A DNA stretch of 11,441 bases from a virus (Duplodnaviria > Heunggongvirae > Uroviricota > Caudoviricetes): IMG/VR virus record IMGVR_UViG_3300023487_000022; one strand, 5' to 3'. Below the pieces are notes generated by a model, which was given only the letters and a program-made list of their open reading frames with translations, was not told the origin of the DNA and did not search any database. A program made the translations under genes and the position numbers. This document shows positions 1-9,947 of this stretch, piece after piece (within the stretch, counting starts at the first letter, position 1; each line of letters starts with the position of its first letter).

Positions 1-40
1 TGATGTCACGCTGAAAATGCCGGCCTTTGAATGGGTTCAT
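1..40 (-). CDS. tnpA: IS26 transposase, first 13 codons only (cut by window edge)
   Basis: ATG at 40..38 on the minus strand, reading MNPFKGRHFQRDI, 38 bp inside the terminal IR. Confidence 0.85.
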   Translation of the reverse strand, partial: MNPFKGRHFQRDI

Positions 41-103
41 GTGCAGCTCCATCAGTAAAAGGGGATGATAAGTTTATCACCACCGACTATTTGCAACAGT
101 GCC
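1..103 (-). mobile_element. IS26 (IS6 family) terminal 103 bp; the element continues beyond the window start
   Basis: Reverse complement of 90-103 is GGCACTGTTGCAAA, the IS26 terminal inverted repeat. Reverse complement of 1-40 is ATGAACCCATTCAAAGGCCGGCATTTTCAGCGTGACATCA, the start of the IS26 transposase gene. Recognised from memory of the IS26 sequence, not from a search. Confidence 0.88.
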
Positions 104-312: not shown

Positions 313-642
313 TTACGCGAATAACTCAAGGAATTCCTGCACGTCCCAATGCTGGACAAGGTGAAGATAGAGCTTAGAAATCACGTCATTCTCGCTATCG
401 CATGTGAAGTAGTACTTCTGGCTGCGGTTGTATGTGTCCACACAAAATTCGCTCATATCCATAAAGTCAGCATCTTCACCCATGTCGCAAATAATCAAAG
501 CAGGAGCATCATCACGAGTCATCAGCTCAAGCACCCAGCGCGAATTGATCAGCGTGGAAGACCAACCTTCTAACTCATAAAACTGGTCAAACTCTTTTTG
601 AGTCATTTTCTTGATTTGGTTGATGTCGATATTTGCAAACAT
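313..642 (-). CDS. Hypothetical small acidic protein (109 aa)
   Basis: ORF-track frame 313..708; start chosen at the internal ATG at 642 because AAGGA lies 7 nt upstream. Product MFANIDINQIKK...; by hand count about 21 D/E versus 8 K/R. No family recognised. Confidence 0.65.
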   Translation of the reverse strand: MFANIDINQIKKMTQKEFDQFYELEGWSSTLINSRWVLELMTRDDAPALIICDMGEDADFMDMSEFCVDTYNRSQKYYFTCDSENDVISKLYLHLVQHWDVQEFLELFA

Positions 643-650
643 AAAGCAAT

Positions 651-717
651 CCTTAAACATGTTGTTTTCTGAATTTCGTAAACAATACCAGTAAGAAAAC
701 GGCCACAAAGTATATCG
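651..717 (-). promoter_or_regulatory. Y-type conserved upstream module, copy 2, with AAACATGTTGTTTT dyad at 655-668
   Basis: Direct repeat of 160-226; abuts the RBS and ATG of the 313-642 CDS. Confidence 0.55.
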
Positions 718-781
718 TTACGGTGCTGCGCTGCCCCGGAGGTTAATAGCGACAAAAGCCACCGTGCTGGTGGTCTCACTC

Positions 782-1000
782 TTAATCTTCGTCGTCCGGG
801 AACTCGCTGTGTACCGCGTCCACCAGCTCCCGCTTTTCATCTTCACTAAGCAGGTGCCAGATATCCTTCCCTTTGGGCGATTCCCCTTCTACCGGGACGA
901 ACGACCACAACTTGCGGTACAACTCCGGCCCCACTGCATCCAGACACTCAGCCAGGGAATCCACACCCCACACCTCAACCGTCACAGGCATCTTAATCAT
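782..1000 (-). CDS. Hypothetical small acidic protein (72 aa)
   Basis: ATG at 1000 with GAGGA 7 nt upstream. Product MIKMPVTVEVWGVDSLAECLD...EFPDDED; about 18 D/E versus 7 K/R by hand count. Confidence 0.7.
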   Translation of the reverse strand: MIKMPVTVEVWGVDSLAECLDAVGPELYRKLWSFVPVEGESPKGKDIWHLLSEDEKRELVDAVHSEFPDDED

Positions 1001-1032
1001 CTCTTCATCCTCACTTCGTTTATATAACGTCT

Positions 1033-1088
1033 AAACATGTTGTTTACTTATTGGTGTTATTGTCGCAATAAGACAAAGGAGAAAAAGG
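1033..1088 (-). promoter_or_regulatory. X-type conserved upstream module, copy 1 (AAACATGTTGTTTA dyad 1033-1046; TTATTG-TCG-CAATAA dyad 1057-1071)
   Basis: About 80% identical by eye to 3801-3856; both lie immediately upstream of minus-strand start codons (1000 and 3788). Confidence 0.55.
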
Positions 1089-1387
1089 ATTTTATGTCGT
1101 GAAAGCCAGGCTGGGCAGTGAATATCCGGGAACGACACGGGAACCAGTATTTACGATATTCTGCTCTACGCGCGCCGCAGGGCTGGTGGGCAGAATTTTC
1201 TTCTCCCCGAAAACCTACTGAAATCGCTTGAGACCCGAGGATGGTCTGGCAGAATGGAGTTCAGCAGCTGCACGAGAGGGAACGACACTCCCTCGCGATT
1301 TTCAGGCGAGCGAAGAGCAAGGCGCACTCCCGAAGATTTCCCGCACTGCTCCCGCAGTCGTCCCTCGCTCTGTACCGGGATGTACCC

Positions 1388-1513
1388 GTTTCCCGACCGG
1401 CAGCCAGCCTTTTCCCGGTTCGTATAGCGGGATTCCCACCGTTTCCCTGAAAAACCTCCAGCCTTTTCCCTGCGGCGACGTTCCCGTTCCTGAAAAGGGA
1501 CATGGCTTTTCCC
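1388..1513. repeat. Array of about 7 degenerate direct repeats with TTTCCC core, roughly 21 bp period
   Basis: TTCCC cores at about 1390, 1412, 1433, 1443, 1466, 1481 and 1509. Three copies share AGCCTTTTCCC-G (1407-1418, 1460-1471, 1504-1516). Confidence 0.5.
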
Positions 1514-2588
1514 TGGATGGCTCGAAGGCTGACCGAAGGGGTGGATAGGGACGTTACGGGGGATGAAAACTATGGCTTGAATTTATACGAAGAAAGTGGC
1601 GATACCCCTCCTTCCCTTCCCACTTATACCTCCCACGAATTTTCTCTCTTATGTGGGCATAAACCTTCTCTCTGATAACGCTCAATACGGCGACTATTCC
1701 TGTGGGTGAAATGGGTGGTTTGTTCTTTCTACCGGCATATGTGGTTTCGTTCTTCTTGAGGTGGTTCTTCTCTGTGTTTTCGTCAGGGTTGTTCTCGTTG
1801 TTTTGGTGATTGTTCTTCTCTGTGTATGGAGTAATGGCAGGTGGGCGATTCCTTTCGTTATTGTATTTGAGTTGTTTGTCTTGAGAGCGTGAAAGGCTTT
1901 TGTGGTTATTTGTGTATTGAGTAATGGCGTTTCCCCGCGAATGTTCTGTTTCGTGTCTTTGGGGATTGAGGGAGTCCTTGCGGTAACAGGCTTCGTTAGA
2001 GTTTCAGTGGTTCTGGTGTTTATTCGCTGTTTGGGGAATGGCGTGTAGTGGGTATCGCATGTATGAATGTTTCGAGTTGCCTGTGAAAGTTAGGTTGGTT
2101 GTCCGGTAGCCTGGGAAGAAGAGGTGGGTCTTTTCAGTAGCCTGCCATAAAGAGGTTGGTTGTTTTTGGGAATGTGGGTAATGGCGTCTCTGGGTTTCCT
2201 GTGGGTGTGGTTAGCTTGTTTTCTTGTGTCTGAAAACAACTTGTTTAGATGTCCAATATAACGCAACGGGAGCGCTTCTGAGCGTGTCTGTTTTTGGGTG
2301 GTATCACGAGTCGTTTTTGACGTTTTGGTCGCAGGGAGATGGATTCTGGTACGCTGGATTTGGGTATAAGAGATGGCGTGCGAAAACATCAACTTTTTAG
2401 ACCAAATCAGGGGAAAGCGTTGACTTTACGTTGATGTGTTATTTATTTGTTTTCTTATGGGTGTAATTGGCTTAAATGCCTTGTCACGCCTGGGATTGAG
2501 TGGGGTAGGGTGGTGGGGAAAGTGGCGATCAACGGACTCTTATAGAAATCCTCAATTTGTGACCGCCAATATCAACGAGCTGCAGCCG

Positions 2589-5539: not shown

Positions 5540-5773
5540 ATTGCGGGCCTGCTCTGCGTCGATTTCTCTCTCTCCCTGCGCAACTTTATGATTTCGGATT
5601 TGACGAAAAGCAGGTTTGCGTCGTTGTCATCGTCGACCGTACTGAAGTGGCACACTGAATTTGGCCGTCTGTAATGGGCAGATCCGGCAACTGTTTAAAA
5701 ACATCCATCTGCTCATGGATACGCAGAAACCACCTTGCCAGCTCCATCTGCTCACCGCGGGTGAGGAGATTAT

Positions 5774-6505
5774 TCAGCGGGGACTTAACAAAAGCGGAGA
5801 CTCGCTCGACAAGCCGGCCAGTGAACCAACATCCCCCCAATTCTGGTGTGTCAGCGCCCCGATACTTACCACTCCAGGCAGCACTTCTTTGTGGTTGTGG
5901 TAGTGCCCGGACAACAATAAACGGAAGCCGATATCTTTCAGTTCCTGTGCGTCGATGCCGACATCGGGCATGGTGGGGATCGCTTTGTTGATTGAGGTAT
6001 GTACAACAACATCATGGTTGTCACCATCCAGCCCGGAACGCAGCGTTTTGAGATCGCTGATAAGTTCTGCGTAGTTATTACGCCAGCTAATCAGATGGAC
6101 GGTTACGTCGCCCATTTTGATGGAATGAGGACGTTTGCCGCAGACGATTTCCACACCGATTGAGCGCAGAGAGGCTGCTGCATTGGCGCTGTATACGGAA
6201 TCGTTGGTTTCGAGGTCGTGGTTGCCAGCCAGCATTACCACCTTGAGACCCAACTCTTTGATGATCCACTCGTAAGTTTCGGTCACGAAATGCAGAACGG
6301 AAGGTGATATAGCACCGCGAACATGGAAGGTATCACCAGCTACCAGCATGTTCTTACAGCCAGCAGCTTTCATCGCTTTGGCCGCCTCCTTCGTAGCGTC
6401 CAGTTGGATCTCCAGCCGAGAGTTAAGCCCGTCAGCGTTTGTTGTCGCAAAAGCATCCCAACGATGATAATGGGGATCTGATATTACCCCGTATGGCAAT
6501 GTCAT
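5774..6505 (-). CDS. Calcineurin-like metallophosphoesterase (243 aa)
   Basis: ATG at 6505 with AAGGA upstream. Ordered motifs ISDPHYH, GDTFHVRG, GNHD and GHYHNH match the metallophosphatase signature (D-x-H, GD-x-x-D/H-R-G, GNH[DE], GH-x-H). Confidence 0.75.
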   Translation of the reverse strand: MTLPYGVISDPHYHRWDAFATTNADGLNSRLEIQLDATKEAAKAMKAAGCKNMLVAGDTFHVRGAISPSVLHFVTETYEWIIKELGLKVVMLAGNHDLETNDSVYSANAAASLRSIGVEIVCGKRPHSIKMGDVTVHLISWRNNYAELISDLKTLRSGLDGDNHDVVVHTSINKAIPTMPDVGIDAQELKDIGFRLLLSGHYHNHKEVLPGVVSIGALTHQNWGDVGSLAGLSSESPLLLSPR

Positions 6506-7546: not shown

Positions 7547-7645
7547 AATTCTTGTTCAAATAATTTTGTCCGGGGCAACGATAACGGATAAGGCGCACCG
7601 GAGTTTGCAAATGCCTGTTTACTTATTCACTTTATTCACAGGCCC

Positions 7646-7703
7646 GATCCAATATTTAGATCCCCAGAGAGATCCTACAGAAGATCAAAAGAGATCCCCG
7701 ATC
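7646..7703. promoter_or_regulatory. GATC (Dam site) cluster, 6 sites in 58 bp; origin-like element
   Basis: GATC at 7646, 7659, 7671, 7683, 7693 and 7700, next to an AT-rich segment and just upstream of iteron cluster 1; this resembles the arrangement at P1-type origins. Confidence 0.5.
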
Positions 7704-7744
7704 GTCTCCAGCGCTTGCGGTTACTGGCTTGAGAAGGGGTTACT

Positions 7745-7846
7745 ATCCACTATAGGGAGCAAAATAACCACTGTAGAGAGCATAATAACCGCTATGAAGA
7801 GCAAAACAACCTCTCTGGAGAGTAGTCGGTATCCACTGTAGTGAGT
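7745..7846 (+). repeat. Iteron cluster 1: 5 direct repeats, about 21 bp spacing, core A(A/T)CCACT(A/G)TAG(A/T)GAG
   Basis: Copies at 7745-7760, 7766-7781, 7787-7802, 7808-7823 (degenerate) and 7831-7846. Confidence 0.8.
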
Positions 7847-8127
7847 AGGAGACAATGTTTTAACTGGATAACTCCGAGCCTGTTTTTCTGCGGCAGATGG
7901 CTGATATTCTTGGAAATATTGTAAATTTTGCGTTGCGGCGTGTTTATTTCGATCACACATTATCCCCAGAAGGGGAGTGATGCCTGATTTTGTAATTATC
8001 TGATTTTTATACACAGGCCCGATCCAGTAATTCAGATCCCTGTTAGAACCAAAGAGAACCACAAAGACCCAAAGAGATCCCCGGCCCTTGCAAACCGTTG
8101 TGCCACATGGCTTTAGAGGTTATCGAT

Positions 8128-8249
8128 ATCCACTATAGTGAGAAGAACAACCACTATAGAGAGTAAATCAACCACTATGGAGAGTAGAAAAACCGCTGTA
8201 GGCGGTAGGATAACCACTGTGATGGGTGCTACTATCCACTGTAATCAGT
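8128..8249 (+). repeat. Iteron cluster 2: 6 direct repeats at 21-22 bp spacing, immediately upstream of repA
   Basis: Copies at 8128-8143, 8149-8164, 8170-8185, 8191-8206, 8212-8227 and 8234-8249. Confidence 0.82.
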
Positions 8250-8288
8250 AAAGGCACCCAAGCCGTCGAATAAAAAGAGACATTTGGA

Positions 8289-9344
8289 ATGAGCGTAAAC
8301 GACAATAAAAACATTGCGATAAGCGAAGCATTTTCCGAAACAGACAAAAAGACCGGCGAAGTTGTTACGTTAGTTCCTAACACCAACAACACAGTTCAGC
8401 CTGTTGCTCTGATGCGTCTTGGTCTCTTCGTTCCGACGCTGAAATCGACATCCAGGGGTAGAAAGGGGCAAATGGTCTCTATGGACGCCTCCGCTGAACT
8501 CAAACAGCTGTCTCTGGCCAAAGCCGAAGGGTACGAGGATATAAGGATTGCTGGTCTTCGTCTTGATATGGATAACGATTTCAAAACATGGGTGGGCATC
8601 ATCCACGCGTTCGCCAAGCACAAGGTTGTTGGTGACACCGTCACGTTGCCGTTCGTCGAGTTCGTCAGACTTTGTGGCATACCAACAGCCAGATCGTCCG
8701 CGAAGTTACGTAAGCGCCTGGACAGCTCTCTAAGTCGTATCGCCACAAACACCATCTCATTCCGCAGCAAAGGCTCTGAAGAGTATTACGTTACGCACCT
8801 TGTGCAGACGGCAAAGTACAGTACCAAGAATGACACGGTCGAACTGAAGGCCGATCCTAAGATTTTCGAACTTTACCAGTTCGACAAAAAGGTGCTTTTG
8901 CAACTTCGGGCCATCAACGAACTCTCCAGAAAGGAATCCGCGCAGGCGCTCTACACCTTCATTGAAAGTTTGCCACCAGACCCGGCGCCAATCTCATTGG
9001 CTCGCTTACGCGCCAGACTTAACTTAACCAGCCGCACCATTACCCAGAATGCGACAGTCAGGAAGGCGATGGAGCAGCTGCGAGAGATCGGCTATCTCGA
9101 TTACACTGAAGTGAAACGCGGCAGCTCGGTCTACTTCGTCATCCACTATAGACGGCCGAAGTTACGTTCGGCACTGCCGCCATCTATGGCTACGCCTGAA
9201 GAGCCAGAAGATATCTTGCCAGGTGATGATCCGGAGGACATTATCGATGTTGCCCCTGAAGAAAAAGACGGGGAAATGGTCATGTTGAGCAAGGAAGAAC
9301 TGGCGATTCTCGAAGAGCTGCGCAAGGCAAAGGCTCGCAAATAG
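8289..9344 (+). CDS. repA: Iteron-binding replication initiator RepA, RepFIB/P1 RepA family (351 aa)
   Basis: Product contains [57 protein letters not shown] and [10 protein letters not shown], which I recognise as conserved in P1 RepA and RepFIB RepA. Flanked on both sides by iterons. Confidence 0.9.
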
Positions 9345-9347
9345 CCC

Positions 9348-9947
9348 AACCACTGTAGAGAGTAAAAAGGCTCACTATCTACTGTAGTGAGCCTTTTTGT
9401 TTATCGGAAATGCAATATCCACTGTAGTGAGTAAAAGAAACCGAAGAATAACCACTGTAGGCAGTGCGCACAAATCGCGAAGTAAATGTTAGTGGTTGCA
9501 AACATAGATAAAACAAGGGCTGAGAGGTTAGCGGTCACTGGGTATCTCTGTTAAGTCTACTCTCTACAGCGGTTATCGTCGCTCTCCTCATTGTTGACTA
9601 TCCACTGTGAAGAGCAGAATTGGCTGACTTGACCTCTATCCACTGTAGTGAGTGGATATCCGTTTAAAACAGCGAAGATTTACTCTCCATAGTGGATATC
9701 CGCTGGAGGGGGCATTCCATCACTCTCTATAGTGGTTGTTTGTAGTCAGTGAACGCCTGTTTACTCACTACAGTGTATAGCGACCCCGATAATCACCAAT
9801 TTACTCACTACAGTGGATAGTTGATATCGTGGCAGAGGGTTTGCTCACTACAGTGGTTGGGGTGCATACCTGAAGGGTGTTCTACTCGCTACAGTGGTTA
9901 TGAGCCGGATTCACACGCGGTGAGCTGGCTACTCACCGCAGTGGATA
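9348..9947. repeat. Downstream iteron array, about 14 copies in both orientations (incA-like)
   Basis: Direct copies at 9348-9363, 9378-9393, 9417-9432, 9450-9465, 9598-9615 and 9638-9653; inverted copies at 9559-9576, 9682-9701, 9721-9738, 9763-9780, 9803-9820, 9843-9860, 9884-9901 and 9930-9947. Confidence 0.8.
9369..9402 (+). terminator. repA rho-independent terminator: GGCTCACTA-TCTACTG-TAGTGAGCC then TTTTTGTTT
   Basis: 9 bp stem beginning 25 nt after the repA stop, followed by a T-run; the stem is built from iteron-like sequence. Confidence 0.6.

What the first reader, a model, noticed from the sequence alone, without database searches (positions are those of the whole stretch)
1128..1560. 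GC-rich non-coding block with hairpins and a periodic TTTCCC array
The block has no plausible ORF; the track ORFs there are Pro/Arg/Gly-rich with no RBS. It contains GGGAACGACAC twice (1128-1138 and 1278-1288), the second copy forming the hairpin GAGGGA-ACGACAC-TCCCTC at 1276-1294. It also has about seven TTTCCC cores at roughly two-helical-turn spacing (1390-1513), three in the longer unit AGCCTTTTCCC-G. Phased direct repeats of this kind are typical of protein-binding arrays such as plasmid centromeres, iterons or primosome/ssi sites, yet no par or rep gene is adjacent.
Basis: seen in the sequence. Interest (0 to 1): 0.6.

Follow-up and report, generated by a model that had tools for sequence, protein, structure and literature searches.

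The report
Orphan iteron-like repeats in phage-plasmid
A non-coding stretch of an SSU5/pHCM2-type phage-plasmid carries five or six copies of a 15-base motif spaced exactly two or three DNA turns apart; the spacing is conserved across hundreds of related plasmids, so it is probably a docking array for a still unknown DNA-binding protein.

Summary
Window 1128-1560 is non-coding. It holds a one-strand array of six units (consensus CCAGCC[T/G]TTTCCC[T/G]G) starting at 1382, 1404, 1435, 1458, 1479 (degenerate) and 1501.

The window is an SSU5/pHCM2-type phage-plasmid. The block lies in a 1.6 kb gene-free region (1001-2588) that is syntenic in all relatives examined, and the block itself matches 717 PLSDB plasmids.

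In 24 non-redundant relatives, down to about 70% identity, the cores are conserved and the spacers vary.

Neither strand shows a stable or conserved fold as RNA or single-stranded DNA, and Rfam gives nothing.

The units are not the resident RepA's iterons. RepA is 48% identical to P1 RepA and has its own P1-style iteron sets at 7747-8254 and 9350-9926. The units are also not P1 iterons, and not a lambda-type cosB despite sharing the CGTTTCC core.

High-scoring units occur at only two loci per genome. The second is a two-unit mini-array 1.5-4 kb away, which IS26 has removed from this window.

Best reading: an orphan, iteron-like protein-binding array. The binder and its role (lytic origin, pac, centromere or roadblock) are unresolved. 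It is a new member of a known kind and of moderate interest.

The parts
1001..2588 (.). Conserved gene-free region of SSU5/pHCM2-type phage-plasmids that contains the finding.
   Evidence: No CDS is called by PGAP at the syntenic place in six relatives. The nine-sequence alignment A1 shows 50-93% per-bin conservation. The block itself (window 1100-1600) matches 717 PLSDB records.
1382..1396 (+). Array unit 1, GTACCCGTTTCCCGA.
   Evidence: PWM score 16.8. Lies 22 bp before unit 2. Present in the window, SSU5 and Enterobacter lineages.
1404..1418 (+). Array unit 2, CCAGCCTTTTCCCGG.
   Evidence: PWM score 20.8. The core AGCC.TTTCCCG is invariant in 9 of 9 sequences.
1435..1449 (+). Array unit 3, CCCACCGTTTCCCTG, reached by a 31-bp step from unit 2.
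   Evidence: PWM score 17.8. CCGTTTC is invariant. The 31-bp step is kept in 15 lineage representatives and shortened to 22 bp in the Klebsiella lineage.
1458..1472 (+). Array unit 4, CCAGCCTTTTCCCTG. This is the best-conserved unit.
   Evidence: PWM score 21.1. CCAGCC.TT.CCC is invariant in 9 of 9 sequences.
1479..1493 (+). Degenerate unit, GTTCCCGTTCCTGAA, in register (21 bp after unit 4 and 22 bp before unit 5). It overlaps the small palindrome GTTCCTGAAAAGGGAC at 1486-1501.
   Evidence: It aligns with full units in other lineages, such as GCTCCCGTTTCCCGG and CCAGCCGTTTCTGTA. The palindrome was picked up as a stem-loop.
1501..1515 (+). Array unit 5, CATGGCTTTTCCCTG.
   Evidence: PWM score 14.8. 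The core C.TTTC.CT is conserved.
1328..1364 (+). Four TCCC motifs at 11-nt spacing (1328, 1339, 1350, 1361). Lineage-specific and poorly conserved.
   Evidence: Positions. TRF reports a period of 11. Conservation is 0.2-0.5, and the stretch is absent from the SSU5, Cyrano and Klebsiella lineages.
1276..1294 (+). Small inverted repeat GAGGGA-ACGACAC-TCCCTC, lying about +14 to +32 from the predicted + strand transcription start.
   Evidence: Sequence. Other lineages have different 5-6 bp stems at the same place, such as GCGGGA...TCCCGC and GGGAC...GTCCC. There is no excess folding energy.
1128..1144 (+). Direct repeat GGGAAC-N5-GGGAAC, which includes the first GGGAACGACAC copy.
   Evidence: The Klebsiella lineage has GGGAGC-N5-GGGAGC at the same place, and the Cyrano lineage has a different repeat.
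1182..1189 (+). Chi site, GCTGGTGG.
   Evidence: It is conserved in 5 of the 6 lineages that keep this segment.
1228..1255 (+). Sigma-70-like promoter, TTGAGA-16 nt-(TG)CAGAAT, pointing rightwards into the array.
   Evidence: It is the only promoter-like site found by the scan of 900-2700. TTG.G. and TGGCA(G/C)AAT are conserved in the Klebsiella, E. albertii and Cyrano lineages. Function is inferred.
1577..1632 (-). Highly conserved element: TTGAAT...GGCGA...CCCCTCC...CTTATA on the + strand. On the - strand it folds into a hairpin followed by a U-rich tail, like an intrinsic terminator.
   Evidence: The - strand hairpins are -9.5 to -21 kcal/mol in 8 lineages and are followed by UUUCUUCG or UUUUUCG. 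A paralogous hairpin lies directly after a - strand gene at the second locus.
1033..1071 (-). Promoter and leader of the - strand gene 782..1000. It has an extended -10 (TGCGACAAT, 1067->1059) and an operator-like palindrome AAACATGTTGTTT (1033-1045).
   Evidence: This is a near-invariant 30-mer. The same motif precedes other - strand genes in relatives. The palindrome occurs seven times in the window. Function is inferred.

Best explanation
Window 1382-1515 is a cis-acting, iteron-like array on duplex DNA. It has five good units and one degenerate unit of a 15-bp site, CCAGCC[T/G]TTTCCC[T/G]G. All units point the same way and sit 22 bp apart (one step is 31 bp), so every site faces the same side of the helix.

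Proposed mechanism: several protomers of one conserved, sequence-specific DNA-binding protein of SSU5/pHCM2-type phage-plasmids bind side by side and cooperatively. They build a wrapped or filament-like nucleoprotein complex. This complex can also engage the second, two-unit array that relatives carry 1.5-4 kb away.

The array lies between a - strand terminator-like hairpin (1590-1632) and a + strand promoter-like site (1228-1255) that fires into it. A bound complex would therefore also block that transcript.

My leading guess for the role is a control or assembly site for a phage-phase DNA transaction, that is, a lytic origin or packaging site. A centromere is the next choice.

Shown here:
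- the region is non-coding;
- the unit sequence, orientation and register;
- conservation of cores and of phase, with variable spacers;
- restriction of the motif to two loci;
- absence of RNA or ssDNA structure;
- no match to the RepA iterons.

Inferred:
- that a protein binds;
- its identity;
- cooperativity and pairing of the two arrays;
- the biological role.
For: - Register: unit spacing in 24 non-redundant relatives is 22 bp (52 intervals), 21 (3), 23 (2), 31 (15) and 43-44 (6). The Klebsiella lineage turns the 31-bp step into 22 bp by a 9-nt deletion, which keeps roughly the helical face.
- Conservation pattern: cores are invariant or nearly so, while spacers vary at about 70% overall identity.
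- Specificity: all units are on one strand. In the complete SSU5 genome, units scoring 15 or more occur only at 91.49-91.59 kb and 95.13-95.15 kb.
- Second locus: the mini-array with 22-bp spacing is present in every SSU5-like contig that matched the pattern.
- Copy number: it varies from 2 to 6 by whole-unit gains and losses.
- Non-coding: mismatches by codon phase are 22/31/21, 26/26/29 and 20/17/20 (p 0.29-0.9). A control gene at similar divergence gives 9/41/7 (p 5e-9).
- No structure: the 561-nt stretch 1100-1660 that contains the block gives RNA z-scores of +0.63 and +0.31. Among the sliding windows that overlap the block, none falls below z -0.9. Consensus structure energy is -6.9 and -10.4 kcal/mol over 474 columns, with almost no covariation. 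ssDNA z-scores are -0.24 and -1.12.
- Precedent for the spacing: the annotated P1 RepA iterons show the same 21-22 bp (incC) and 30-31/40-41 bp (incA) spacing classes.
- Expression: ORFs called over the gap in phage-plasmid Cyrano are at or near the floor in lysogen RNA-seq, about 5 and 14 against 57 for the neighbouring gene (supplement of PMC9928086). That fits a DNA site better than an abundant RNA.
Against: - No binding protein is identified.
- The proteins encoded next to the block are acidic or membrane proteins with only unknown-function PHROG families.
- No AT-rich unwinding element, DnaA-box cluster or IHF consensus lies next to the array.
- No rep, par or terminase gene is adjacent.
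- Whole-unit slippage would preserve a 22-bp register by itself, so only the core-versus-spacer contrast and the 31-to-22 change argue independently for a helical-face constraint.
- The + strand of the array is moderately C-rich (C/G 1.5-2.0) and lies downstream of a + strand promoter-like site, so an RNA-level role is not excluded.
Confidence: 0.55

Rival explanations
1. RNA-level element on the + strand. The UUUCCC tracts, spaced 11-22 nt apart in a C-rich, G-poor and unstructured transcript, act as a Rho utilisation site or as docking sites for an RNA-binding protein. They would terminate or regulate the antisense-oriented transcript that starts at the promoter-like site 1228-1255 (or, in the SSU5/pHCM2 lineages, at the small + strand gene that replaces 1072-1290).
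For: - C/G ratio on the + strand is 1.5-2.0 across 1313-1507.
- The RNA has no stable fold.
- A conserved + strand promoter-like site lies 60-260 nt upstream.
- In three lineages a + strand gene sits there instead.
- Rho-dependent terminators are described as C-rich regions with regularly spaced C residues (established knowledge, recalled, not checked here).
Against: - Rut sites are compositional and are not known to keep invariant 13-15 nt cores across lineages with variable spacers (the rut generalisation is from memory).
- Spacer lengths restricted to multiples of about 10.5-11 bp make sense for duplex DNA, not for RNA.
- At the second locus in Cyrano, two strong + strand intrinsic terminators lie about 450 nt upstream of the array.
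- The G content (24%) is high for a rut site.
Confidence: 0.17
2. - strand RNA sponge. Read on the - strand, the array is 13 GGA motifs in 190 nt (CAGGGAAA, CGGGAAA, CAGGAAC). That density resembles CsrB/CsrC and could titrate CsrA or another RNA-binding protein.
For: - TCC occurs on the + strand at 13 positions between 1328 and 1510.
- The - strand is the sense direction of almost all genes in SSU5.
Against: - The array lies downstream of a terminator-like hairpin on the - strand.
- The annotated - strand ORF over it in Cyrano is at background in lysogen RNA-seq.
- The GGA motifs flank predicted stems rather than sitting in hairpin loops.
- Some lineages have lost the GGA in individual units, e.g. 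the Klebsiella TTTCCACT and TTTCTACT.
- There is no Rfam CsrB/CsrC/Rsm match.
Confidence: 0.04
3. Extra binding sites for the plasmid's own initiator: an incA-like copy-control or handcuffing locus for the P1-like RepA.
For: - RepA (8289-9344) is 48% identical to P1 RepA.
- P1 iterons in one orientation begin GC(C/T)TTTCCCTCCAGC, which shares TTTCCCT and CCAGC with the units.
- The 22 and 31 bp spacing classes are as in P1 incC and incA.
Against: - The resident replicon already has complete iteron sets with a different consensus, CCACTRTAGAGAGYA. There are 5+6 upstream and 13 downstream of repA in both orientations.
- That PWM has no hit inside the finding; the nearest is a marginal 8.3 at 1638 on the - strand.
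- The P1 iteron PWM does not score the array on the strand and in the register of the units. Its full form has no hit there, and its half form gives only a chance-level 10.0 on the opposite strand at about 1465 (5.0 such hits expected per shuffle).
- The two shared sub-motifs are in the opposite order and at a different offset (+15 against +7).
Confidence: 0.06
4. No specific function. The units are the product of replication slippage in a tolerant intergenic spacer, perhaps contributing only intrinsic curvature through phased T and A tracts.
For: - Whole-unit deletions and copy-number differences among close relatives show that slippage happens.
- T and A tracts fall near integer helical turns (reading).
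Against: - Cores stay invariant while spacers diverge, over lineages from Escherichia, Salmonella, Klebsiella, Enterobacter and Citrobacter.
- The same unit pair is kept at a second locus in every SSU5-like contig that matched.
- The gap is at least as conserved as its flanking genes, and the gene on its right differs between lineages.
Confidence: 0.1
5. Degraded coding sequence or an unannotated small gene.
For: Some annotators called ORFs here, such as CYRAN_104 and SSU5_109. The window has ORFs of 57-106 aa.
Against: - No Pfam family for these ORFs.
- No codon periodicity of substitutions, against strong periodicity in control genes.
- Indels of 1, 2, 4, 9, 10 and 22 nt.
- PGAP calls nothing in six relatives.
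- ORFs differ in strand and frame between lineages.
Confidence: 0.02

Closest known systems
Iterons of theta-replicating plasmids, in particular the phage-plasmid P1 incC and incA arrays bound by RepA
   Same: Both are tandem direct repeats of about 15-19 conserved bp in one orientation, with spacing classes of 21-22 and about 31 bp (two and three helical turns). Both form two separate clusters a few kb or less apart. Copy number is variable. The sub-motifs TTTCCCT and CCAGC are shared.
   Different: The array is not next to a rep gene. There is no AT-rich region, DnaA-box cluster or GATC cluster beside it. Neither the P1 iteron PWM nor the resident RepA iteron PWM scores it. The shared sub-motifs are in a different order.
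Lambda cosB R elements (binding sites of the small terminase gpNu1)
   Same: The core CGTTTCC is identical to units 1 and 3 (CCGTTTCCC). The inverted GGGAACGACAC copies resemble R2, GGAAACGACAG. In both cases there are several sites in a phage non-coding region. The lambda R sites are among the best PWM hits in lambda 1-800.
   Different: Lambda R-site scores are only 7-11 against 15-21 for true units. SSU5 TerL is of the Terminase_6N/PBSX type, not GpA. SSU5 TerS shows no similarity to Nu1. The array is about 11 kb from the terminase genes and no unit lies near them.
Lambda ori iterons (O protein sites)
   Same: Lambda has four sites spaced 20-24 bp apart with TCCC...GGGA arms around an A-rich centre. 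The window's GTTCCTGAAAAGGGAC (1486-1501) has that shape.
   Different: Lambda iterons are 18-bp palindromes lying inside the O gene and are followed by an AT-rich region. Here five of six units are asymmetric, the region is non-coding, and no AT-rich block follows.
Plasmid centromeres made of direct repeats (R1 parC, pSK41 parC, F sopC) and the dispersed centromere sites of phage-plasmid N15
   Same: They are phased direct repeats bound cooperatively on one face of the DNA, and can occur at more than one locus per replicon. This comparison rests on recalled literature and was not tested here.
   Different: No par operon is adjacent. The SSU5 ParA-family gene is about 60 kb away. Unit length and sequence are unrelated to those recalled sites.

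Membership tests
Plasmid Rep-protein iterons | Tandem direct repeats of about 17-22 bp in a register of about 22 bp, in one orientation. | tested here: met
   Six units with spacings of 22, 31, 23, 21 and 22 bp. Across 24 relatives, 22 bp accounts for 52 of 80 intervals.
Plasmid Rep-protein iterons | Sequence matches the iteron consensus of the replicon's own initiator. | tested here: not met
   The PWM built from the 11 RepA iterons at 7747-8254 finds 13 more sites at 9143-9926 but none in the array. The P1 iteron PWM gives no hit on the strand and in the register of the units; its half form gives only a chance-level 10.0 on the opposite strand near 1465.
Plasmid Rep-protein iterons | Adjacent rep gene, AT-rich unwinding element and DnaA boxes. 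| tested here: not met
   The nearest rep gene is 6.7 kb away. DnaA-box-like sites cluster at 7632-8015, with only one in the gap, at 2173. The block is 55-59% GC.
Plasmid Rep-protein iterons | Bound by an initiator; exerts incompatibility. | not testable with these tools
   Needs EMSA or footprinting and an incompatibility assay.
Lambda-type cosB | R-element core CGTTTCC in several copies and both orientations. | tested here: inconclusive
   The core is shared, but lambda R sites score only 7-11 with the unit PWM. The inverted copies (GGGAACGACAC) are lineage-specific.
Lambda-type cosB | Lies next to cosN and the terminase genes; Nu1-like TerS and GpA-type TerL. | tested here: not met
   The array is about 11 kb from terS and terL in SSU5, with no units near them. 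TerL is Terminase_6N/PBSX-like. BLASTP of Nu1 against SSU5_001 gives E=5.8.
Partition centromere (parS/parC) | Repeat array adjacent to, or regulating, a par operon. | tested here: not met
   No par gene was found among the ten window ORFs scanned. The SSU5 ParA-family gene is at 30.5 kb. No unit lies upstream of it, and no repeat array was found there.
Partition centromere (parS/parC) | Bound by a centromere-binding protein; stabilises an unstable replicon in cis. | not testable with these tools
   Needs a plasmid stabilisation assay.
Single-strand initiation / primosome assembly site | Unusually stable hairpins in one DNA strand. | tested here: not met
   ssDNA folding z-scores are -0.24 (+) and -1.12 (-) for 1128-1560.
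Structured non-coding RNA | Match to a described family, or a conserved secondary structure with covariation. | tested here: not met
   No Rfam match at gathering threshold, and nothing credible at E<=10. RNAalifold gives -6.9 (+) and -10.4 (-) kcal/mol over 474 columns; on the + strand, 1 of 16 predicted pairs shows a compensatory change.
Rho utilisation site | C-rich, G-poor, unstructured transcribed RNA of about 80 nt or more. | tested here: inconclusive
   On the + strand, C is 36% and G 24%, with C/G 1.5-2.0 over 1313-1507, and the RNA is unstructured. Transcription and Rho dependence were not tested.
CsrA-type sponge RNA | Many GGA motifs in loops of an abundant small RNA. | tested here: not met
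   There are 13 GGA motifs in 190 nt on the - strand, but they are not in loops. They lie behind a terminator-like hairpin. Expression is at background in the Cyrano lysogen.

The most novel reading that the evidence does not exclude
The whole 1.6 kb gene-free region (1001-2588) is the so far unmapped lytic-phase origin of SSU5/pHCM2-type phage-plasmids.

The + strand promoter-like site at 1228-1255 would send a transcript through the TTTCCC array into 600-700 bp where the non-template strand is 31% G and 14% C. That composition favours a persistent R-loop that could prime replication. This would fit the T4-like set of genes in SSU5: a UvsW-like helicase, RNase H, a RecA-like recombinase and gp46/47-like exonuclease subunits.

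A protein bound to the twin TTTCCC arrays would gate this transcript, keeping the origin silent in the lysogen.
Probability: 0.12. Interest if true: 0.75.

Novelty: new member of a known kind. Interest (0 to 1): 0.45.

Why it matters
SSU5/pHCM2-type phage-plasmids are common in Salmonella Typhi, Klebsiella, Enterobacter and E. coli. The block alone matches 717 PLSDB records, and these elements carry resistance genes (PMC9600943).

Their plasmid replicon can be read off the sequence: a P1-like repA with iterons. I found no description of their lytic origin, packaging site or centromere in the papers searched.

This region is conserved, gene-free and nearly silent in the lysogen. Its two-locus, phase-conserved repeat array makes it a concrete and cheap-to-test candidate for one of those missing cis sites. 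It also gives bait for finding the protein that binds it.

If the array turns out to be only a terminator or a slippage product, the result is ordinary.

Tried and rejected
- Rfam at gathering threshold on the whole window, and at E<=10 on 900-2700, gave nothing credible.
- tRNA/tmRNA scan found none.
- Folding both strands as RNA, whole and in sliding windows, and as ssDNA showed no excess stability in the block.
- RNAalifold on 20 diverse relatives, both strands, found no conserved structure.
- Coding hypothesis rejected. My first control gene (782..1000) was invalid, because the neighbouring 216-bp genes of other lineages are not homologous. I replaced it with three other genes.
- RepA iteron PWM and P1 iteron PWM: no match to the array.
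- Lambda Nu1 against SSU5 TerS: no similarity. PDB and NCBIfam searches of TerS were uninformative.
- Pfam and PHROG searches of flanking and candidate proteins gave only unknown-function families. Flanking proteins are acidic or membrane proteins.
- The genome-contig scan for the array gave two probable contaminant or mis-binned contigs.
- The viral-contig scan for a unit pair gave only SSU5-like contigs plus unrelated chance or coding repeats.
- A protein-based locus search with the 72-aa neighbour reached only close relatives.
- Cumulative GC skew of SSU5 peaks next to the gap but mainly follows gene orientation, so it is not decisive.
- DnaA-box and IHF consensus searches found nothing next to the array.
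- No repeat array was found upstream of the SSU5 parA-family gene.
- Literature searches found no description of the region. One 2026 preprint on phage-plasmid heteroresistance could not be opened.
- I did not use the large protein-homology searches or structure prediction, because no candidate binder is encoded in the window.
Full report
**What the window is**

The best match of window 1000-1700 is E. coli plasmid pXJW9B263-1 at 99.9% identity. Related DNA is found in Salmonella phage SSU5, S. Typhi plasmid pHCM2, E. coli phage-plasmid Cyrano and many Klebsiella, Enterobacter and Citrobacter plasmids typed IncFIB and non-mobilizable. The window is therefore part of an SSU5/pHCM2-type phage-plasmid.

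It is colinear with SSU5 92.8-84.9 kb and then jumps to 63.9-57.6 kb. About 21 kb present in SSU5 is missing here. Its first 103 bases are the end of IS26 (IS26 is annotated at that place).

**Check of the observation**

- GGGAACGACAC occurs at 1128 and 1278. Only 3 of 200 shuffles give two matches.
- The inverted repeat at 1276-1294 is there.
- Six exact TTTCCC copies lie on the + strand within 1337-1513. TTCCC adds 1433 and 1481.
- The 15-mer CCAGCCTTTTCCCTG, with up to 3 mismatches, hits four times in the array against 0.24 expected in the whole window.

A position-weight matrix built from the units gives starts at 1382, 1404, 1435, 1458 and 1501. All are on the + strand, and no hit lies anywhere else in the window on either strand. 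Alignment with relatives shows a sixth, degenerate unit at 1479. The true register is therefore 22, 31, 23, 21 and 22 bp. The eleven TCCC motifs of 1328-1510 are helically phased (R=0.74, p about 0.006).

**Non-coding status**

- NCBI's PGAP pipeline calls no gene in the syntenic 1.5-1.6 kb gap of six relatives.
- The ORFs in the block have no Pfam family.
- Substitutions between the window and four diverged lineages are spread evenly over the three codon phases: 22/31/21, 26/26/29 and 20/17/20, with p 0.29-0.9.
- Three control genes of the same window show the expected excess in one phase at the same divergence, for example 9/41/7 with p 5e-9.
- Indels of 1, 2, 4, 9, 10 and 22 nt occur in the block.

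**Conservation of the array and of its phase**

I collected the region from nine annotated records (alignment A1) and from 67 IMG/VR contigs. In 24 non-redundant representatives, down to about 70% identity, the units are found in the same orientation. Adjacent spacing is as follows:

| Spacing (bp) | Intervals |
|---|---|
| 22 | 52 |
| 21 | 3 |
| 23 | 2 |
| 31 | 15 |
| 43-44 | 6 |
| 131 | 2 |

The two 131-bp intervals reach a weak hit (score 9) outside the array.

The cores AGCC.TTTCCCG, CCGTTTC and CCAGCC.TT.CCC are invariant in A1, while the spacers between them are among the least conserved columns.

Copy number ranges from 2 to 6. Several relatives have lost exactly one or two units. The Klebsiella lineage shortens the single 31-bp step to 22 bp. 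The second refutation test (phase not conserved) therefore also fails.

By contrast, the 11-nt TCCC run at 1328-1364 and the two GGGAACGACAC copies are lineage-specific. In SSU5, pHCM2 and Citrobacter, window 1072-1290 is replaced by a small + strand gene.

**A second locus**

In the complete SSU5 genome, units scoring 15 or more occur only in the main array and in a two-unit array, also 22 bp apart and on the same strand, 3.5 kb away at 95.13-95.15 kb. That second locus has further degenerate units and a Chi or near-Chi sequence. It lies directly after the intrinsic terminator of a - strand gene.

A pattern scan of IMG/VR found the same pair in every SSU5-like contig that matched, 1.5-4 kb from the main array. 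Otherwise it returned only unrelated chance or coding repeats. In this window the second locus is missing because IS26 cuts the element at position 103.

**Is it an RNA or a single-strand structure?**

- Rfam gives nothing.
- Minimum free energies of 1100-1660 are no better than shuffles on either strand (z +0.63 and +0.31). Among the 100-nt windows that overlap the block, none falls below z -0.9.
- RNAalifold on 20 diverse sequences gives -6.9 kcal/mol (+) and -10.4 kcal/mol (-) over 474 columns, with almost no covariation.
- As single-stranded DNA the z-scores are -0.24 and -1.12.

A structured RNA and an ssi or primosome site are therefore not supported.

In the lysogen transcriptomes of E. 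coli LF82, the two ORFs that annotators placed in the gap of Cyrano are at the floor (about 5) and near background (about 14). The next gene reads 57 (supplement of PMC9928086). That argues against an abundant lysogenic RNA.

**Context on both strands**

Almost all SSU5 genes run in the direction of the window's - strand.

- The near-invariant 30-mer at 1042-1071 reads on the - strand as an extended -10 (TGCGACAAT) plus a CA-rich leader with the palindrome AAACA-N3-TGTTT. The same motif precedes other - strand genes. The palindrome occurs seven times in the window, at 164, 655, 1033, 2234, 3852, 4230 and 4546, and also in front of terS in SSU5.
- On the - strand, the conserved element 1577-1632 folds into a hairpin of -9.5 to -21 kcal/mol followed by a U-rich tail in eight lineages.
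- On the + strand, the only promoter-like site in 900-2700 is TTGAGA-16-(TG)CAGAAT at 1228-1255. It is conserved in the lineages that keep this segment.

The array thus sits between a - strand terminator-like hairpin and a + strand promoter-like site that points into it. The + strand of the array is moderately C-rich (C 36%, G 24%), so a Rho-related RNA role remains a rival.

**Tests against known families**

*Resident RepA.* The RepA of the window (8289-9344, Rep_3 domains) is 48% identical to P1 RepA (E 9e-76). Its iterons (CCACTRTAGAGAGYA) form two upstream clusters of 5 and 6 at 21-bp spacing. Thirteen more copies lie downstream at 9143-9926 in both orientations. This is a complete P1-like oriR-repA-incA layout, with a GATC cluster and DnaA-box-like sites beside it. 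That matrix does not hit the array.

*P1 iterons.* P1 iterons share TTTCCCT and CCAGC with the units, but in the other order. The P1 matrix does not score the array on the strand and in the register of the units; its half form gives only a chance-level hit on the opposite strand near 1465. P1's annotated arrays do show the same spacing classes, 21-22 bp and 30-31/40-41 bp.

*Lambda cosB.* The three gpNu1 sites of lambda cosB share the core CGTTTCC and are among the best matrix hits in lambda 1-800, but at scores of only 7-11. Three further points argue against a cosB here.
- SSU5 TerL is of the Terminase_6N/PBSX type.
- Its TerS shows no similarity to Nu1.
- The array lies 11 kb from the terminase genes, with no unit near them.

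*Lambda ori.* Lambda ori iterons have the TCCC...AAAA...GGGA shape of one unit (1486-1501), but they are palindromes inside the O gene.

*Centromere.* No par gene is adjacent. The SSU5 ParA-family gene is 60 kb away, with no recognisable repeat array in front of it.

**Conclusion**

The evidence fits a duplex-DNA, protein-binding, iteron-like array.
- The cores are conserved and asymmetric.
- The spacers are variable.
- Spacing is kept at whole numbers of helical turns.
- All units share one orientation.
- The motif occurs at only two loci per genome.
- There is no nucleic-acid fold.
- Transcription in the lysogen is low.

I put this at 0.55. What binds it and why remain inferred.

My ranking of roles is:
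1. A phage-phase site, meaning lytic origin control or packaging recognition by the HTH small terminase.
2. A centromere-like site.
3. A transcriptional roadblock for the + strand promoter.

The remaining rivals are:

| Rival | Confidence |
|---|---|
| + strand RNA or Rho site | 0.17 |
| Functionless slippage repeats | 0.10 |
| RepA secondary sites | 0.06 |
| - strand GGA sponge | 0.04 |
| Coding remnant | 0.02 |

No paper found in the library describes this region.

It is a new member of a known kind: an orphan iteron-like array in a widespread and clinically relevant phage-plasmid family. Its main value is as a testable candidate for one of the unmapped cis sites of these elements.

Noticed in passing
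window 1-103: This is the end of IS26 (inverted repeat TTTGCAACAGTGCC at 90-103). It truncates a - strand gene and cuts off the part of the phage-plasmid that carries the second TTTCCC mini-array in relatives.
   Followed up: partly
window 7600-9930: A complete P1-like plasmid replicon. repA (8289-9344) is 48% identical to P1 RepA. Iterons CCACTRTAGAGAGYA occur as 5 copies (7747-7851) and 6 copies (8130-8254) at 21-bp spacing. Thirteen more copies in both orientations lie downstream (9143-9926, incA-like). Beside them are a cluster of six GATC sites at 7646-7700 and DnaA-box-like sites at 7632, 7960 and 8007.
   Followed up: yes
window 164, 655, 1033, 2234, 3852, 4230, 4546; also SSU5 just upstream of terS: An operator-like palindrome, AAACA-N3-TGTTT, occurs seven times. 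Where I checked, it lies in a CA-rich leader just upstream of a - strand gene start, often behind an extended -10 (TGCGAYAAT). It may be a dispersed operator of a phage regulator. The copy at 2234 has no gene behind it.
   Followed up: partly
window 1650-2400: About 700 bp of extreme strand asymmetry: the + strand is 31% G, 39% T and 14% C. The - strand RNA would be almost unstructured (-2 to -12 kcal/mol per 100 nt) with C/G of 2-3.5, which is rut-like. The + strand RNA would be G/U-rich and R-loop-prone. The stretch is conserved with no ORF.
   Followed up: partly
window 1826-2186 and 2070-2163; L004:492-552: Further conserved repeat families lie in the gap. (G/A)GTAATGGC(G/A) or GGAATGGCG occurs at about 1830, 1921, 2036 and 2179. 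Three 31-nt tandem units GTAGCCTG...AGAGGTGGGT are also present, and one more copy of this unit lies in another intergenic region of relatives. A GTAATGG-type motif also occurs at the second TTTCCC locus of SSU5 and Cyrano.
   Followed up: partly
window 2383-2580: Five copies of GTTGA(T/C)/ATCAAC in both orientations, at about 2386, 2420, 2431, 2527 and 2574. All are invariant in nine lineages. This is probably another binding-site cluster next to the variable right-hand gene.
   Followed up: no
window 766, 819(-), 1182, 3260(-), 10043, 11065; whole SSU5 genome: Chi (GCTGGTGG) is strongly over-represented. There are 6 in 11.4 kb here and 29 in the first 102 kb of SSU5, against about 3 expected by chance for SSU5. 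One Chi lies 200 bp before the main array. A Chi or near-Chi lies right after the second array.
   Followed up: partly
window 548-2526: There is no GATC for about 2 kb, where about 8 are expected. Elsewhere in the window GATC occurs about every 200-250 bp. Some relatives do have a GATC near the equivalent of 1600.
   Followed up: no
window 5643-5811 vs SSU5: Relative to SSU5, the window lacks about 21 kb (SSU5 63.9-84.9 kb). That stretch carries the exonuclease, ribonucleotide reductase, thymidylate synthase, DHFR, methylase and antirepressor genes. This plasmid is therefore a rearranged and probably defective phage-plasmid.
   Followed up: partly
window 2272-2295: A + strand terminator-like hairpin, GCGCT-TCTG-AGCGT, is followed by GTCTGTTTTT. 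It is conserved and lies close to the operator-like palindrome at 2234. It could end a + strand transcript that crosses the whole G/T-rich stretch.
   Followed up: no
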